A stretch of 40,220 bases of DNA from a virus (lineage: Duplodnaviria > Heunggongvirae > Uroviricota > Caudoviricetes), in the IMG/VR virus record IMGVR_UViG_2671181134_000016. The stretch is one strand, 5' to 3'. The notes beneath the pieces were generated by a model, which worked only from the letters and a program-made list of their open reading frames with translations, ran no database searches and was not told the origin of the DNA. A program made the translations under genes and the position numbers. This document shows positions 2,668 to 38,198 of this stretch, piece after piece (position 1 is the stretch's first letter; each line of letters starts with the position of its first letter).

Positions 2668-3492
2668 TCAGGCGTTGAAAGTACCAATAAAGGTTTTTAC
2701 TTTGCTGTCTTTGAATTTTTCAACAAGCAGATCACGAAATTCGTTAGCCATTTCTTCCTGCACTGCTTCCAGCTGAATAATGCGCAGAACCAGTACAGGG
2801 CGATCACCAGTGATAATGCTGAGTCGTAATTTAAACGGACGTTCTTTCAGGCCTTCAAACGGAACGCATTTAAATTCAAATGCCACTGGCATAATGTCTT
2901 TGGTCTTCGCTTCGACAGACTCCATCAGGGAGCGTTTGCCGCTGAAGTCATTGTCTTCAAAATCAGCAGTCTGGTTCGCTTCAATTGTGATTTTACGGAT
3001 CGCTGCAGCCGCTTTGGTTGCCTGAATGGCGTCACCATTAGCATCAAAGCCCACAAGGTAGTCGGCCCAGTCTTCAATCCATTCTGCCAGTGATTTCTGG
3101 GAGTTACGCTCGCCGTTAACAGACAACAGGGCAGAGAACGGTGCTGTCTTTTTCAGTTTGAGAGTGGCGGTGTTATCTGCGTGACCTGGTTCATCAATAG
3201 TACCCAGGTTAAGCACACTGACGGCACGCATATTATCAGCATCGATAAAGCAGCGGGTGCCTTCATCTGCAAGATCTTTAGAATAACGGGTAAAGTCATC
3301 GATGCTGGCAGTGGAAAGCGCACCACGGAAACGGAAGCGATTTAAATTAAATTTTTCCAGATCATGAATGCGGAAATTCTCAGGCAATGCCACAGCATCG
3401 GCACCAATCTTACTGATAATTTCATTAACACCCTGAGCAGAAATAAGGGCATGGATTTGATTAATTGCGGTTGCGTCTAAGTTCTGAGACAT
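2668..3492 (-). CDS. YfdQ-like protein (DUF2303-type prophage protein)
   Basis: 274 aa; GAGGA Shine-Dalgarno before the ATG at 3492; length and position match remembered yfdQ of CPS-53-type prophages. Confidence 0.65.
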
Positions 3493-3557
3493 AATAAGTC
3501 CTCACTATATTAAGATATTCAGTGATGAGATAAATAATCAGTTAATTAAGAACGATA

Positions 3558-3920
3558 TTAATGACCTGCTGCGCGGAGTTTTCCGTCAGGCTCACCGGCA
3601 AGAGTCAGTAATTGTCCCTGGTCTTCCTGCAGAATAGTCAGGCGACCACCGCGATTGACATACATCGGCGTTTCGGTGGTGTCTTCTTCGGAAATTTTCC
3701 CACGGTTAGTCGGGCGAACATATGAGAGTTTGTGTTTGATTTTCACACGGTTCTCATCAAATGGTTCGATTTCCAGGTTGAGTGAGACCTTACCTTTGGT
3801 TTTCGTGTTCATCACACCGGAAGCGACTTCACTGAGAACTGCGCCGATTTTGGTTTCAAATACGCCGCCGTCCAGCTCCCCGATAAATGCCTGCACATCA
3901 GTACTGCGTTCGCTAGCCAT
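3558..3920 (-). CDS. YfdP-like hypothetical protein (first gene of leftward early operon)
   Basis: Internal ATG at 3920 preceded by GAGGAG; about 120 aa; the long track ORF upstream extension has no RBS. Confidence 0.6.
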   Translation of the reverse strand: MASERSTDVQAFIGELDGGVFETKIGAVLSEVASGVMNTKTKGKVSLNLEIEPFDENRVKIKHKLSYVRPTNRGKISEEDTTETPMYVNRGGRLTILQEDQGQLLTLAGEPDGKLRAAGH

Positions 3921-4528
3921 TTTGCTGCTCCTCATCATATCGACCCTGCAAGGTCGGTTGGTTTCTCCACAAAACAGAGAAGAACACCTGCGGTGACTGC
4001 CGCCCGGATGGATTGGGTTATGAGCCCGTCGTCCGATGATGCTCTTCTCTGTTTTGTAAAAAGAGCGGTACCAGCCGGAAGCAAGGGTACAAACTGGTAC
4101 CGCCAAAGCAGTGGCTGTTGTGGTGGGGTTGTCACTCAGGCGTATGGTCAACCTGACAATCCGGTGTCCTCAACGGGGAAAGAGTAACCCCGCCATACTT
4201 ACCGCCGCGCCATTTCGCGGATTACCACAACGCTGAGAGCACTTAGCCAGTTACGGCACCACACTTTGTCGCGGCTCCATAAATGCCCTCATCGTTGCAC
4301 CCTGGTCTCTTCCCAGGCGTCAAACCGAATCGCCACGCTGGTTAGGCGTCTTATCAGCATCATCATTGACTTGCACATTCCGGCTACCTGGTTTGTTTGC
4401 CCGAGCAAGGAGTGGATTGTCCCCTTTAACGTCCCCAGACCGCTAACGACGCATGTGCCATACGCCGTGTTACAACCAAATTTTGTTAGTACCTTGTTTG
4501 TTTGTCTGGAAAGAAAGATAAAATGAAG

Positions 4529-4567
4529 TTGCGCATCATGCAAGTATTTTTGTTGCGAGATATGCAA
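4529..4567 (-). promoter_or_regulatory. OL-like operator pair (TTGCGCATCATGCAA and TTGCGAGATATGCAA) overlapping a leftward promoter (-35 TTGCAT, -10 TATCTT on the minus strand)
   Basis: Two TTGC-N7-GCAA dyads 24 bp apart, same dyad type as in the cI-cro intergenic region. Confidence 0.5.
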
Positions 4568-4581
4568 TTTAAAGGGTAATG

Positions 4582-4606
4582 AAAAGCCACCTTTGGGTGG
4601 CTAATT
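4582..4606 (-). terminator. Terminator downstream of cI
   Basis: GCCACC-tttg-GGTGGC hairpin followed by a T-run on the minus strand, 17 bp after the cI stop. Confidence 0.55.
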
Positions 4607-4622
4607 GATGAGGAGGTAAGGG

Positions 4623-5315
4623 TTAATTGTGTCGCTTAAGGGTTTGTGACTGGCTGATTAAGACCTTTCCAAAGACCATAAACCGGTGTTCATTTTCGCT
4701 GGTAATTCCCCATTCACGGTAAATCTGGTTATCAGAAATCACCAGTAGTTTGTCAGGTATCATTTGCAGTCGTTTGACATAAATTTTATCATCAAAACCA
4801 AATACATAGATACCATCTCCATCAAACTGATTGATACTGACATCAACGAAGATGAGATCTCCTGGCTCAATGGTTGGACACATACTGTCCCCACGAACGT
4901 TGATAACTTTAATGTGATTGGCTGGCCGTCCGCCAAACATCGATACAGCATTATCAGTTCTGTATTCAATGGCATGAATCACATCAATGACATCACCGCC
5001 CTGGATAAGGCCATTTCCCGCACTGGCACTGACATCCAGCATTTCAATACGGAATACATCCTTCACCTGCGCAACATCCTCACTAATACTGTTTTTACAT
5101 ACAGTATTACTTTTGAAGTCTGAGGTAAAGAGATCAGCAATATCAACACCTAAGCTCTTGGCAATATTACTCAGGGCTTGTTCAGTGAATTGTTTCTGCT
5201 TACCTGTTTCCAGGCGTGAGATATTCGCCGCATCCACTCCTATTGCTTCAGCGAGATCGGCGATTTTCATGTTCTTCGCCTGGCGAAGTTGTCTGACTCG
5301 GTTTCCTATGTTCAT
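4623..5315 (-). CDS. cI: CI-type prophage repressor (N-terminal HTH, C-terminal S24 LexA-like peptidase)
   Basis: XRE-type HTH (KIADLAEAIGVDAANISRLETGK) and S24 motif (VRGDSMCPTIEPGDLIFVD ... KRL); divergent from the cro-like gene. Confidence 0.9.
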   Translation of the reverse strand: MNIGNRVRQLRQAKNMKIADLAEAIGVDAANISRLETGKQKQFTEQALSNIAKSLGVDIADLFTSDFKSNTVCKNSISEDVAQVKDVFRIEMLDVSASAGNGLIQGGDVIDVIHAIEYRTDNAVSMFGGRPANHIKVINVRGDSMCPTIEPGDLIFVDVSINQFDGDGIYVFGFDDKIYVKRLQMIPDKLLVISDNQIYREWGITSENEHRFMVFGKVLISQSQTLKRHN

Positions 5316-5335
5316 GCGTTTATTACATTTCTTTA

Positions 5336-5400
5336 TTGCGCGTTAAGCAAATCAACTTGCGCAAAATATTTGCGTGAAATAATATGCTCATCACGCAATA
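5336..5400. promoter_or_regulatory. OR-like operator / divergent promoter region between cI and cro
   Basis: TTGCGCGTTAAGCAA (TTGC-N7-GCAA dyad), near-palindrome CGCAAAATATTTGCG, further ACGCAA half-site; 97 bp AT-rich intergenic between divergent genes. Confidence 0.65.
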
Positions 5401-5412
5401 TGTGGAGGTCAT

Positions 5413-5673
5413 ATGCAATCACCATTACGGAATGTGCGTAAGGCGCACGGATTTACTTTGCAGCATGTTGCTGCTGGCGTTCAGGTCAATCCAGCGACGC
5501 TGAGTCGTATTGAAAGACTGGAACAAATTCCATCTATCGATCTTGCAGAACGTCTGGCCAATTTTTTTAAGGGTGAAATCAGCGAAATGCAGATTCTTTA
5601 TCCGGCACGTTTTCAATCTAGCCAAAACCAGAATGGGTTTAAACCACAGGAACAGGAGGTAAGCCGTGGGTAA
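5413..5673 (+). CDS. cro: Cro-like HTH regulator
   Basis: HTH (FTLQHVAAGVQVNPATLSRIER); GGAGG before the ATG; first gene of the rightward operon. Confidence 0.75.
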   Translation: MQSPLRNVRKAHGFTLQHVAAGVQVNPATLSRIERLEQIPSIDLAERLANFFKGEISEMQILYPARFQSSQNQNGFKPQEQEVSRG

Positions 5674-6223
5674 TCATCACTGGAAAGTGGAAAAACAGCC
5701 TGAGTGGTACGTGAAAGCTGTCAGAAAAACTATCGCGGCGTTGCCGGGGGGTTACGCTGAAGCTGCTGAGTGGCTGGATGTAACAGAGAACGCATTATTT
5801 AACCGCCTTCGTGCCGATGGCGATCAGATTTTCCCGCTGGGATGGGCAATGATTTTACAACGTGCTGGTGGCACTCACTTCATTGCTGACGCTGTGGCGC
5901 AGTCTGCAAATGGCGTCTTTGTGTCTCTTCCTGACGTCGAGGATGTGGACAATGCCGATATTAACCAGCGTTTACTGGAAGTCATTGAACAGATCGGCAG
6001 TTATTCAAAACAGATTCGTTCGGCAATCGAAGACGGTGTAGTGGAACCGCATGAGAAGACAGCAATTAACGACGAGCTGTACCTCTCAATTTCGAAGCTG
6101 CAGGAGCATGCAGCACTTGTCTACAAAATTTTTTGCGTTTCAGAAAGTAATGACGCCCGCGAGTGTGCAGCTCCGGGCGTCGTGGCGTCGATTGCTTCTG
6201 GTTGTGGAGAAACTAACGCATGA
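5666..6223 (+). CDS. YmfL-like / CII-position regulatory protein
   Basis: 185 aa, GTG start with AGGAGG Shine-Dalgarno; position after cro; size matches remembered e14 YmfL. Confidence 0.55.
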
Positions 6224-6558
6224 ACAGTTTAACAACACACTACCGTCGCTCGCAACTGATTGCGCTTCCTGTACCGGGTGGAAAAGCGAAGGTGGAGTAT
6301 TGCTATGCAGTAAATGTACCAGGTGACAGGGAAATTGTAACCCACAGCTTTGCTGAGTGGGCTGTGGGTGATTTCAACCGGCAGAAGGAGACAGTCCTTT
6401 GCGACAAGTTAACCGCTGGTTCAAAGATCACTACGGAGTGCCCGTCAGAGTCATTCGTTGGGAGCCGGAAACACAACGGGTTATCTACATCCGTGAAGGC
6501 TATGAGCATGAGTGCTTCAGCCCGCTCGAACAGTTTCGTCGTAAATTCAGGGAAATAG
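6220..6558 (+). CDS. YmfM-like hypothetical protein
   Basis: 112 aa; ATGA overlap with the preceding stop (translational coupling). Confidence 0.5.
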
Positions 6559-6567
6559 AGGTCGGTC

Positions 6568-7509
6568 ATGAGCACTAAATTAACCGGCTATGTATGGGAT
6601 GGTTGCGCTGCGTCAGGCATGAAATTATCCAGCGTGGCAATTATGGCCCGCCTGGCTGATTTCAGTAATGACGAAGGTGTGTGCTGGCCATCAATTGAAA
6701 CTATTGCCCGTCAGATTGGCGCGGGGATGAGTACCGTCAGAACGGCTATCGCACGGCTGGAAGTAGAAGGCTGGTTAACGCGTAAGGCGCGTCGCCAGGG
6801 TAACCGCAATGCGTCGAATGTTTATCAGCTTAACGTTGCGAAGCTTCAGGCAGCGGCATTTTCTCAACTGTCAGATTCTGACCCGTCAAAATCTGACGCA
6901 TCAAAATCTGACCCGTCAAAATTTGATGCGTCGAAATCTGGCAAAAAAGCGGGTTTTCACCCGTCAGAATCTGGCGGGGATCCGTCAGTAAAATCAAAAC
7001 ATGATCCGTCAGATAAAAAACCTTCTCGTCCGGACGCTTCGCAACCGGACACGCAGACGGCTGAACAGGATTTTTTAACTCGCCATCCTGATGCGGTTGT
7101 ATTCAGCCCTAAAAAGCGCCAGTGGGGGACGCAGGATGATTTGACCTGCGCACAGTGGCTCTGGAAAAAAATCATCGCCCTGTACGAGCAGGCTGCCGAA
7201 TGTGACGGCGAGGTGGTTCGTCCCAAAGAACCGAACTGGACAGCCTGGGCAAACGAAATTCGCCTGATGTGTGTGCAGGATGGTCGTACTCACAAACAAA
7301 TCTGCGAGATGTACAGCCGCGTCAGCCGCGATCCGTTCTGGTGCCGTAACGTGCTCAGCCCGTCGAAGCTGCGGGAAAAATGGGATGAGCTTTCCCTGCG
7401 CTTATCGCCGTCCGTCAGCACGTACACCGAAAAACGCGAAGACCCGTACTTCAAAGCCAGTTACGACAACGTGGACTACAGCCAGATCCCGGCAGGATTC
7501 AGGGGGTGA
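6568..7509 (+). CDS. Replication initiation protein (O-like, N-terminal winged-helix domain) with an internal iteron-encoded acidic/serine repeat linker
   Basis: N-terminal HTH-like replication-protein segment; internal SDSDPSKSDASKSDPSKFDASKS repeats encoded by DNA iterons; AGAGG before the ATG. Confidence 0.75.
   Translation: MSTKLTGYVWDGCAASGMKLSSVAIMARLADFSNDEGVCWPSIETIARQIGAGMSTVRTAIARLEVEGWLTRKARRQGNRNASNVYQLNVAKLQAAAFSQLSDSDPSKSDASKSDPSKFDASKSGKKAGFHPSESGGDPSVKSKHDPSDKKPSRPDASQPDTQTAEQDFLTRHPDAVVFSPKKRQWGTQDDLTCAQWLWKKIIALYEQAAECDGEVVRPKEPNWTAWANEIRLMCVQDGRTHKQICEMYSRVSRDPFWCRNVLSPSKLREKWDELSLRLSPSVSTYTEKREDPYFKASYDNVDYSQIPAGFRG
6871..7015. repeat. Iteron array (putative origin of replication) inside the replication initiator gene, followed by an A-rich stretch
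   Basis: At least 6 direct repeats of the form CCGTCA(A/G)AATCTG / GCATCAAAATCTG, then aaaatcaaaacatgatccgtcagataaaaaa. Confidence 0.6.
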
Positions 7510-37985: not shown

Positions 37986-38198
37986 ATGAAGGGAAGAACC
38001 ATTGCTGACTATGCAAAGTTAGCGCAAGAATCTGCCAAACGTAACGTATTAAGAACTGAGTTTAGTGAGTATCTCAAGGTAAATGGCCTGGAGAGGAGTG
38101 AAGAGAATGCTCATACTTTTGCCTTTGGGAAAACAAACAATCATGACGATAGAGTTAATCTTGTACATATGCTGATGTCAGGTGTATGGGGTGGCTAA
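37986..38198 (+). CDS. Small hypothetical protein (70 aa)
   Basis: ATG at 37986 with GAGGAG Shine-Dalgarno 5 nt upstream. Confidence 0.4.
   Translation: MKGRTIADYAKLAQESAKRNVLRTEFSEYLKVNGLERSEENAHTFAFGKTNNHDDRVNLVHMLMSGVWGG

What the first reader, a model, noticed from the sequence alone, without database searches (positions are those of the whole stretch)
4529..5400. Shared TTGC-N7-GCAA operator dyads on both sides of cI define putative OL and OR
The cI-cro intergenic region contains TTGCGCGTTAAGCAA, the near-palindrome CGCAAAATATTTGCG, and a further ACGCAA half-site. About 800 bp away, just beyond the cI terminator, two more dyads of the same type (TTGCGCATCATGCAA, TTGCGAGATATGCAA) lie 24 bp apart and overlap a plausible leftward promoter. 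This gives the repressor's probable recognition sequence and an OL/OR layout directly from sequence.
Basis: seen in the sequence. Interest (0 to 1): 0.45.

Follow-up and report, generated by a model that had tools for sequence, protein, structure and literature searches.

The report
Operator sites of a common prophage repressor
The short inverted repeats on both sides of this prophage's repressor gene are very probably the DNA sites where the repressor and its antagonist Cro bind to switch the virus on or off; this is an ordinary lambda-type control region, but for an immunity type carried by about one in five complete E. coli genomes.

Summary
All quoted sequences are at the stated coordinates. 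A weight matrix built only from related prophages ranks four 15-bp dyads top in the 40-kb window: 4529-4543 and 4553-4567 (OL), 5336-5350 and 5384-5398 (OR). Shuffles give 0.2 such hits.

In 22-27 related loci from a dozen enterobacterial genera (cI 54-97% identical, same recognition helix), dyads of consensus TTGCGTATTACGCAA sit at the same distances from cI. Three inferred promoters each start their -35 hexamer on the first base of a dyad.

Corrections:
- The "ACGCAA half-site" is a full dyad (OR1) covering the pR -10 and start.
- The near-palindrome 5360-5374 is not a dyad of this type. The family-wide middle site is the weak register 5357-5371.
- A further palindrome lies inside cro (5434-5448), where relatives carry a strong dyad held by fixed codon choice.

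A 2025 preprint on phage 1720a-02 (control region 95/97 identical) predicted by AlphaFold3 that Cro binds the OR3 dyad. Binding has not been measured.

Verdict: a lambda-type OL/OR operator set, a new member of a known kind, of modest interest.

The parts
4515..4520 (-). Inferred pL -10 hexamer TATCTT. The transcript would start near 4508 and run leftward.
   Evidence: A TAnnnT hexamer lies exactly 8 nt after the promoter-proximal OL dyad in 19 of 25 related loci. Read directly.
4529..4543 (.). OL1 dyad TTGCGCATCATGCAA. Its leftward-strand first hexamer TTGCAT (4543-4538) is the inferred pL -35, with a 17-bp spacer.
   Evidence: Exact pattern match. Top matrix score in the window, 19.1 bits. 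Its position is conserved in relatives.
4553..4567 (.). OL2 dyad TTGCGAGATATGCAA, 24 bp from OL1 and upstream of the pL -35.
   Evidence: 18.9 bits. Paired dyads 22-24 bp apart occur in 19 of 25 loci. One E. coli strain has three copies.
4585..4602 (-). cI intrinsic terminator stem-loop.
   Evidence: Terminator scan. Equivalent GC-rich hairpins with T runs occur in relatives.
4623..5315 (-). cI repressor, 230 aa: HTH_3 N-terminal domain plus S24 autopeptidase C-terminal domain.
   Evidence: Pfam. The GDSM Ser and VKRLQ Lys align to UmuD. A99-G100 is invariant in relatives.
5322..5327 (-). Inferred pRM -10 hexamer TGTAAT, 6 nt before the cI ATG, which implies a leaderless cI mRNA. No Shine-Dalgarno sequence is present.
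   Evidence: Conserved block in the footprint of 22 loci.
5336..5350 (.). OR3-like dyad TTGCGCGTTAAGCAA. Its cI-strand first hexamer TTGCTT (5350-5345) is the inferred pRM -35.
   Evidence: 15.7 bits. A dyad sits at -35..-21 from the cI ATG in all family loci. It lies within the 20-bp Cro site predicted by AlphaFold3 in phage 1720a-02.
5357..5371 (.). Weak OR2-like site TTGCGCAAAATATTT. It has one perfect half-site, TTGCG, which coincides with the pR -35 TTGCGC at 5357-5362. The other arm is degenerate.
   Evidence: This is the best-scoring middle register in 20 of 22 loci, with scores from -10.7 to +14.7 and -3.0 in the window. It reaches 12 bits or more in L004, L006, L010, L021, L022 and L028. 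TTGCGCAAGTtg is invariant across the family.
5370..5374 (+). It is unexplained.
   Evidence: The palindrome scores -44.8 as a dyad and this half-site is absent from distant relatives. It is nevertheless invariant in the E. coli/Shigella/Citrobacter clade while its neighbours vary.
5380..5385 (+). Inferred pR -10 hexamer TAATAT, 17 bp after TTGCGC. The transcript would start near 5392.
   Evidence: Conserved aTTA block next to OR1. The hexamer reads TAACAT in clade relatives.
5384..5398 (.). OR1-like dyad ATGCTCATCACGCAA (reverse complement TTGCGTGATGAGCAT), covering the end of the pR -10 and the transcription start.
   Evidence: One-mismatch match, 14.1 bits. A dyad sits at -83..-69 from the cI ATG in all family loci. 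Its outer base is fixed as ..GCAT, which is part of the -10.
5413..5673 (+). cro, an 86-aa HTH_3 protein. Its recognition helix ATLSRIE shares the S-R-(L/I)-E motif with the cI helix ANISRLE.
   Evidence: Pfam, sequence read directly. Arg32 is predicted to contact operator guanines in the 1720a-02 preprint. The Cro DNA-binding domain is identical to that phage's.
5434..5448 (.). Perfect palindrome GTGCGTAAGGCGCAC inside cro (codons 8-12). It is a candidate auxiliary operator 50 bp from OR1.
   Evidence: 7.5 bits. At the same position 16 of 27 family loci have a dyad of 13-21 bits. In those loci Leu is always TTG, Ser always TCG and Arg always CGN, while neighbouring synonymous codons vary.
5666..6223 (+). 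cII-like regulator (Phage_CP76 family). This is context only.
   Evidence: Pfam, PHROG 101.

Best explanation
This is the immunity region of a lambdoid prophage. Its S24-type CI repressor and small HTH Cro protein recognise a 15-bp dyad, idealised as TTGCGTA-N-TACGCAA with the invariant core TTGC-N7-GCA.

Four strong copies flank cI. OL1 (4529-4543) and OL2 (4553-4567) lie just past the cI terminator. OR3 (5336-5350) and OR1 (5384-5398) lie between cI and cro. Between OR3 and OR1 is a weak site (5357-5371) that keeps only one good half-site.

Each of the three inferred promoters begins its -35 hexamer on the first base of a dyad: pL on OL1, pRM on OR3, pR on OR2. OR1 additionally covers the pR -10 and start. 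Bound repressor would therefore block RNA polymerase at pL and pR. Occupancy of OR3, by Cro first or by excess CI, would shut the leaderless cI promoter. RecA-stimulated self-cleavage of CI at Ala99-Gly100 would release repression.

Shown here: the sequences, their statistical excess, their conservation in position and sequence across genera, and the promoter-like hexamers. Inferred, not shown: protein binding, order of site occupancy, cooperativity, transcription start points and leaderless translation.
For: 1. A matrix trained only on relatives picks exactly these four sites as the top hits in 40 kb, with 0.2 expected by chance.
2. In 22 non-redundant loci, the cI-cro spacer is conserved only in these blocks: OR1 plus the pR -10, TTGCGCAAGTtg, OR3, TGTAAT and the start codons. 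The dyad centres and inter-site DNA vary.
3. A pair of dyads 22-24 bp apart, followed at exactly 8 nt by TAnnnT, occurs in 19 of 25 loci after the cI terminator.
4. All family loci carry 2-7 sites of 12 bits or more, clustered around cI. The three control immunity regions with unrelated DNA-binding domains (HK022, ST160, Acinetobacter L030) have none, and 10 kb of K-12 e14 has one, far from its repressor.
5. The cI recognition helix N(I/V)SR(L/V)ETGKQK is invariant across the family. The N-terminal domain is 33% identical to 434 repressor.
6. cI has an HTH plus an S24 peptidase domain with the Ser/Lys dyad.
7. There is independent prior modelling. In phage 1720a-02 the control region is 95/97 identical and the Cro DNA-binding domain is identical. 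AlphaFold3 places a Cro dimer 20-39 nt upstream of cI, which corresponds to window 5335-5354 and contains OR3. Arg32 contacts guanines spaced by eight bases, as in TTG-N8-GCAA. Genetic data in the same preprint show that this Cro represses a second prophage.
Against: No binding, footprint or transcription start data exist for CI at any of these sites.

The middle OR site is very weak in this phage (-3.0 bits). OR therefore has only two canonical dyads, 48 bp apart.

OR3 scores as high as OR1. Under a strict lambda analogy that would repress pRM too readily.

The half-site TTGC resembles the -35 consensus TTGACA, so part of the conservation at OL1, OR2 and OR3 could come from promoter function.

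BLASTP finds no alignment between the cI N-terminal domain and Cro, so shared specificity rests on a short motif read by eye.
Confidence: 0.85

Rival explanations
1. The first reader's everted palindrome CGCAA-N5-TTGCG (5360-5374), centred exactly midway between OR3 and OR1, is the real OR2. It would be bound by CI or Cro in a geometry different from the other sites.
For: The centres are 24 + 24 bp apart, as in lambda. Both arms are invariant in the E. coli/Shigella/Citrobacter clade while the 5 nt between them vary, which is the pattern seen at the true dyads.
Against: The half-sites point outward, so the dimer that reads TTGCG-N5-CGCAA cannot read them. The matrix score is -44.8, and -15.7 to -55.6 in all 22 loci. 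The left arm lies in the least conserved part of the spacer across the family. In 20 of 22 loci the best middle register is 3 bp away, and it is a good dyad in several loci.
Confidence: 0.1
2. The dyads are Cro sites only, and CI recognises a different sequence.
For: The only modelling available is for Cro. BLASTP detects no similarity between the cI N-terminal domain and Cro.
Against: Both proteins are HTH_3 proteins with the same S-R-(L/I)-E motif in helix 3. No other repeated motif is conserved in the spacers. The OL pair at the leftward promoter, and the conservation of the dyad along with the cI recognition helix over 54-97% identity, fit CI. In every studied lambdoid phage CI and Cro share operators (established knowledge).
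Confidence: 0.05
3. The repeats are conserved only as promoter -35 elements, or arose by chance, and are not protein operators.
For: TTGCxx resembles TTGACA, and three dyads start on inferred -35 hexamers. The whole-window count of the exact pattern is not significant on its own.
Against: The distal arm GCAA at a fixed 7-nt spacing is conserved equally well and has no promoter role. OL2 and OR1 are not -35 elements. The intragenic site in relatives is maintained by synonymous codon choice. The matrix gives 4 hits against 0.2 expected.
Confidence: 0.03

Closest known systems
Phage lambda OR (OR1-OR3) and OL operators with pR, pRM and pL
   Same: An HTH plus S24 repressor and a divergent cro. 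Dyad operators are spaced about 21-27 bp apart and overlap the divergent promoters. A second operator cluster sits at the leftward early promoter. The cI mRNA from the maintenance promoter is inferred to be leaderless. A terminator follows cI.
   Different: The dyad is 15 bp, TTGC-N7-GCAA, instead of 17 bp. The N-terminal domain is unrelated to lambda's. There are two OL sites, not three, and no rexAB lies between cI and OL. OR2 is nearly vestigial here. The operators start exactly on the -35 hexamers. The OR2 centre is near -49 of pRM rather than -42, so lambda-style activation of pRM is not implied. Cro is an HTH_3 protein, not a lambda-Cro fold.
Phage 434 repressor and its 14-bp operators (ACAA-N6-TTGT, from my own knowledge)
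   Same: The N-terminal domain is a homologue, 33% identical over 63 residues. A designed 434 repressor is among the structure-database sequence hits. Both use a short 4-bp outer half-site with a variable centre.
   Different: The base-contacting positions differ (434 TQQSIEQ against DAANISR here), and so do the half-site sequence and the spacing (N7 against N6).
Phage 1720a-02 (Stx2d) Cro and its AlphaFold3-predicted operator (bioRxiv 10.1101/2025.01.01.630987)
   Same: It is the same immunity type: the control region is 95/97 identical, the Cro DNA-binding domain is identical, and CI differs at 5 of 230 residues. The predicted 20-bp Cro site contains the OR3 dyad.
   Different: As far as the text read shows, the preprint models only one site and only Cro. 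It does not describe OR1, the OL pair, the consensus, the promoters or the family-wide conservation.
Phage 933W operator region (Tyler, Mills and Friedman 2004, cited in PMC4587872)
   Same: It is a lambdoid Stx phage with only two OL sites (statement in PMC4587872).
   Different: The repressor specificity and operator sequence are unrelated. 933W was characterised experimentally.

Membership tests
Lambda-type CI/Cro immunity region | Repressor with an N-terminal HTH domain and a C-terminal S24 (LexA-like) self-cleaving domain | tested here: met
   Pfam HTH_3 (E 9e-11) plus Peptidase_S24 (E 6.5e-19).
Lambda-type CI/Cro immunity region | Ser/Lys catalytic dyad and an Ala-Gly cleavage site | tested here: met
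   GDSM (Ser144) and VKRLQ (Lys181) align to the UmuD catalytic residues. S98-A99-G100 is invariant in the family alignment. Cleavage itself was not tested.
Lambda-type CI/Cro immunity region | Divergently transcribed small HTH cro gene next to cI | tested here: met
   ORF 5413-5673 (+), HTH_3.
Lambda-type CI/Cro immunity region | Several related dyad operators in the cI-cro spacer overlapping divergent promoters | tested here: met
   There are two strong dyads and one weak site. Conserved -35/-10 hexamers have 17-bp spacers. The third site is marginal in this phage.
Lambda-type CI/Cro immunity region | A second operator cluster at the leftward early promoter | tested here: met
   OL1 and OL2 lie after the cI terminator, with a conserved -10.
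Lambda-type CI/Cro immunity region | CI and Cro bind these operators; CI binds cooperatively and activates pRM from OR2 | not testable with these tools
   Only an AlphaFold3 model of Cro on OR3 exists, for a near-identical phage. The geometry (OR2 centre about -49 of pRM, OR3 on the pRM -35) does not match the lambda activation geometry. That is my inference.
Lambda-type CI/Cro immunity region | N antiterminator gene and nut site downstream of pL | tested here: inconclusive
   No convincing ORF lies in 3945-4508, and the candidate ORFs there give no N-like PHROG or Pfam match. PMC3851460 states that SfII, which has the same immunity type, lacks N. There is no Rfam hit.
Lambda CII binding site (TTGC-N6-TTGC direct repeat, from my own knowledge) | Direct repeat of TTGC with a 6-nt spacer flanking a -35 region | tested here: not met
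   The sites are inverted repeats with a 7-nt spacer. TTGC-N9-TTGC at 5357-5373 has the wrong spacing.
434-repressor-like HTH_3 DNA-binding domain | Sequence homology of the five-helix N-terminal domain | tested here: met
   33% identity, E 3e-9 in a pairwise comparison. The operator specificity differs.

The most novel reading that the evidence does not exclude
The right operator may not be a lambda-like triplet. It may instead be an array of two strong dyads 48 bp apart, a nearly vestigial middle site, clade-specific orphan half-sites, and a fourth site inside the cro coding sequence held in place by codon choice. pR and pRM would sit back to back, and each would carry an operator on its own -35. 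In that reading CI would only repress its own promoter and never activate it. The intragenic site would add looping or a roadblock. The resulting switch logic would differ from lambda, 434 and P22, in an immunity type present in about 19% of complete E. coli genomes and in some Stx2 phages.
Probability: 0.25. Interest if true: 0.45.

Novelty: new member of a known kind. Interest (0 to 1): 0.3.

Why it matters
This immunity region is very common. It is in 1040 of 5426 complete E. coli genomes. It is also in Shigella phage SfII, in mEp460, and in the Stx2-converting phages Stx2a_1447, Stx2a_WGPS2, phiSTEC1575-Stx2k and 1720a-02.

A well-supported operator consensus and promoter map has three practical uses:
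- It allows prediction of cross-immunity and cross-regulation between co-resident prophages, as the 1720a-02 preprint reports for Cro.
- It allows design of reporter and induction-defective constructs for these Stx phages.
- It provides a weight matrix to scan for repressor targets outside the prophage.

Conceptually this is a standard lambda-type arrangement and would not surprise a specialist.

Tried and rejected
- Rfam on 3400-6300, and on HK022 and two relatives: nothing relevant. HK022 put RNA is not in Rfam.
- Literature: searches for mEp460, e14/cohE, SfV/SfII operators and the string TTGCGCAA found no experimental definition of these operators. The e14 paper (by PMC id and DOI) and the SfV paper (by PMC id) are not held. 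The Stx2a paper PMC4587872 could not identify operators in its PST2 phages, but PA2-type phages are not among the records with this immunity region, so I make no link.
- K-12 e14: its repressor YmfK is unrelated in the DNA-binding domain, and its spacers carry a different repeat (GTAC-rich). e14 is therefore not this immunity type.
- HK022 CI and the P22-like ST160 C2 (41-43% identical, C-terminal part only): they have different N-terminal domains and no dyads of this type.
- Fourth exact match at 38002-38016: it lies inside a small ORF in an AT-rich accessory region and scores only 8.7 bits, so it is probably chance.
- Site 5314-5328 (9.9 bits): it overlaps the cI ATG and the pRM -10, and that accounts for its score.
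- Covariance model of the structured pL leader found in relatives: there is no significant hit in the window.
- Alternative promoters: the scan's leftward TCCACA-16-TATTAT at 5406-5379 is not conserved in relatives and was not adopted.

Full report
**Layout**

The region holds a 230-aa repressor gene at 4623-5315 on the minus strand. An 86-aa cro gene lies at 5413-5673 on the plus strand, followed by a cII-like gene at 5666-6223. The repressor has an HTH_3 N-terminal domain and a Peptidase_S24 C-terminal domain. Cro is an HTH_3 protein, and the third gene belongs to Phage_CP76 (CII). GDSM (Ser144) and VKRLQ (Lys181) align with the catalytic residues of UmuD. SAS-A99-G100 is invariant in relatives, so RecA-dependent self-cleavage is expected. 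A terminator-like hairpin at 4585-4602 follows cI.

**Check of the observation**

The exact pattern TTGC-N7-GCAA occurs four times in the window against 1.69 expected. That count is not remarkable by itself, but three of the four lie in the short non-coding stretches flanking cI. With one mismatch allowed, a fourth local site appears: ATGCTCATCACGCAA at 5384-5398.

**Related sequences**

The same immunity region (90-99% identical) occurs in these phage records:
- mEp460
- Shigella phage SfII
- Stx2a_1447 and Stx2a_WGPS2
- phiSTEC1575-Stx2k
- 1720a-02
- four PhiR phages

It also occurs in 1040 of 5426 complete E. coli genomes. More distant repressors (54-84% identical) were collected from Salmonella and Klebsiella phages and E. 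coli phage Flotzy. Further ones came from 24 genome loci in Citrobacter, Kluyvera, Pseudescherichia, Klebsiella, Trabulsiella, Buttiauxella, Pantoea, Mixta, Dryocola, Rosenbergiella, Proteus and Serratia. All keep the recognition helix N(I/V)SR(L/V)ETGKQK.

**Phylogenetic footprint**

Relative to the cI ATG, a dyad sits at -83..-69 and another at -35..-21 in essentially every family locus. A pair of dyads follows the cI terminator.

In 22 non-redundant loci the cI-cro spacer reads cata...cc.Cct....TTGCGT..T.cGCATaTTAtt..a........a.TTGCGCAAGTtg.TTTGCa.a...CGCAAaaa..A..TGTAAT...cgcATG. Only the dyad arms, three promoter hexamers, the cro ribosome site and the start codons are conserved.

I built a weight matrix from 61 sites of relatives, leaving out the window and its near-identical clade. 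Its consensus is TTGCGTATTACGCAA. In the window it ranks 4529 (19.1 bits), 4553 (18.9), 5336 (15.7) and 5384 (14.1) first, with the next hit at 9.9 bits. Shuffled windows give 0.2 hits of 14 bits or more.

Every family locus has 2-7 sites of 12 bits or more, clustered around cI. HK022, ST160 and an Acinetobacter locus have none. Ten kilobases of K-12 e14 have one, far from its repressor. HK022 CI, ST160 C2 and e14 YmfK have different N-terminal domains and visibly different spacer repeats.

**Promoters (inferred)**

- Leftward promoter pL. In 19 of 25 loci the promoter-proximal OL dyad is followed after exactly 8 nt by TAnnnT (TATCTT in the window, 4520-4515). The first six bases of the dyad (TTGCAT, 4543-4538) therefore form a -35 with a 17-bp spacer.
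- cI promoter pRM. TGTAAT (5327-5322) lies 6 nt before the ATG, with no Shine-Dalgarno sequence. It lies 17 bp from TTGCTT (5350-5345), the first hexamer of OR3. This implies a leaderless cI mRNA.
- Rightward promoter pR. TTGCGC (5357-5362) and TAATAT (5380-5385) are 17 bp apart. Both lie in conserved blocks.

Each promoter's -35 is thus the first hexamer of a 15-bp operator register. OR1 additionally spans the end of the pR -10 and the start. The non-consensus outer base of OR1 (ATGC rather than TTGC) is the fifth base of the -10 hexamer.

**The middle of OR**

It scores -44.8 bits, and the equivalent register scores between -15.7 and -55.6 in all 22 loci. Its cI-side arm is part of the invariant TTGCGCAA. 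Its cro-side arm lies in the least conserved stretch of the family footprint.

The best middle register in 20 of 22 loci is 5357-5371 (-56..-42 from the cI ATG). Scores there run from -10.7 to +14.7, and six loci reach 12 bits or more. The window keeps only the perfect arm and scores -3.0.

Centre-to-centre distances are then 21 bp to OR3 and 27 bp to OR1. The OL pairs are 22-24 bp apart.

One point remains unexplained. Within the E. coli/Shigella/Citrobacter clade, the extra TTGCG at 5370-5374 is invariant while the five bases between the arms and the flanks change.

GTGCGTAAGGCGCAC at 5434-5448 is a perfect palindrome in cro codons 8-12. It scores 7.5 bits. The terminator scan also flagged it as a hairpin.

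At the same position, 16 of 27 family loci have a dyad of 13-21 bits. It is encoded as TTG CGN AAR TCG CAN. Leu is always TTG, Ser always TCG and Arg always CGN, although the neighbouring Leu and Arg codons vary. This indicates selection on the DNA sequence itself. The site lies about 50 bp from OR1, at roughly +43..+57 of the inferred pR transcript. Its role is unknown.

**Prior work**

I found no experimental definition of these operators.

A 2025 preprint on Stx phage 1720a-02 (10.1101/2025.01.01.630987) is directly relevant. It reports that this phage's Cro represses a co-resident prophage. AlphaFold3 places a Cro dimer on a 20-bp site 20-39 nt upstream of cI, and Arg32 contacts guanines spaced by eight bases.

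That phage's spacer is 95/97 identical to the window's. Its Cro DNA-binding domain is identical, and CI differs at 5 residues. Positions 20-39 correspond to window 5335-5354, ATTGCGCGTTAAGCAAATCA, which contains OR3. Cro Arg32 lies in LSRIE, and cI has the matching ISRLE (Arg34).

This is independent, though computational, support for one site. It means the OR3/Cro pairing is not new.

**Mechanism and verdict**

The most likely reading (about 0.85) is a lambda-type switch with these steps:
- CI dimers occupy the OL1/OL2 pair and OR1, with help at the weak OR2. This blocks pL and pR.
- OR3 occupancy, by Cro early in lytic growth or by excess CI, shuts the leaderless cI promoter.
- CI self-cleavage lifts repression.

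Binding, site order, cooperativity and transcription start points are all inferred.

Two differences from lambda leave room for a somewhat different logic, and I rate that at about 0.25. OR3 is strong and sits on the pRM -35. OR2 is centred near -49 of pRM rather than -42.

Overall this is a well-supported new member of a known kind of system. It is useful because the immunity type is so common, but it is not surprising.

Noticed in passing
L035 (E. coli YF-1, NZ_CP161809.1), OL region: This strain has three tandem OL dyads, through duplication of a 22-bp unit TTGCGAGATATGCAAGTGGTAT. The window and most relatives have two.
   Followed up: no
L003 2313-2380, L005 2315-2382, L011 2311-2378, L016 2320-2387, L007 2379-2446, L001 2363-2430 (-), L033 (K-12 e14) 6110-6178 (-): A 68-nt element (CAGCGAACAGGCAGGACGCCCACGAAGTAGCC...CCGG-loop-CCGG...ATGATTCGC) lies shortly downstream of the leftward early promoter, in prophages with different repressors. 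RNAalifold gives 15 pairs, 3 of them with compensatory changes. A covariance model finds it at 85-97 bits in 8 loci but not in the window. It is not in Rfam. These phages lack N, so it may be a put-like processive antiterminator RNA. That was not tested.
   Followed up: partly
window 3945-4508: About 560 nt lie between the inferred pL start and the first convincing leftward gene (3558-3944, PHROG 204). No credible ORF is present. The stretch is 98-99% identical in phages of other immunity types (cdtI, Ayreon, Stx2c phages), so a mosaic joint lies near 4488. It contains a 25-nt-arm inverted repeat at 3969-3993/4033-4057 and a direct repeat TACCTKGTTTGTTTG at 4385 and 4490.
   Followed up: partly
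window 6856-6978: Six copies of a roughly 15-nt unit (TCAAAATCTGACNCG) lie inside the O-like replication gene 6568-7509. They are probably origin iterons.
   Followed up: no
window 5370-5374: An orphan TTGCG half-site is invariant in the close clade but absent from distant relatives. It does not pair with any correctly oriented partner.
   Followed up: partly
L016 1389-1403 and L017 1388-1402 (Pantoea): In these two loci the extra right-hand dyad overlaps the cro start codon (ATGCAAATCCCGCAA) instead of lying at cro codons 8-12.
   Followed up: no
window 37987-38198: A small ORF of about 70 aa lies in an AT-rich accessory region near the right end of the prophage. It carries the fourth exact TTGC-N7-GCAA match (38002-38016, 8.7 bits), which is probably chance.
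   Followed up: partly
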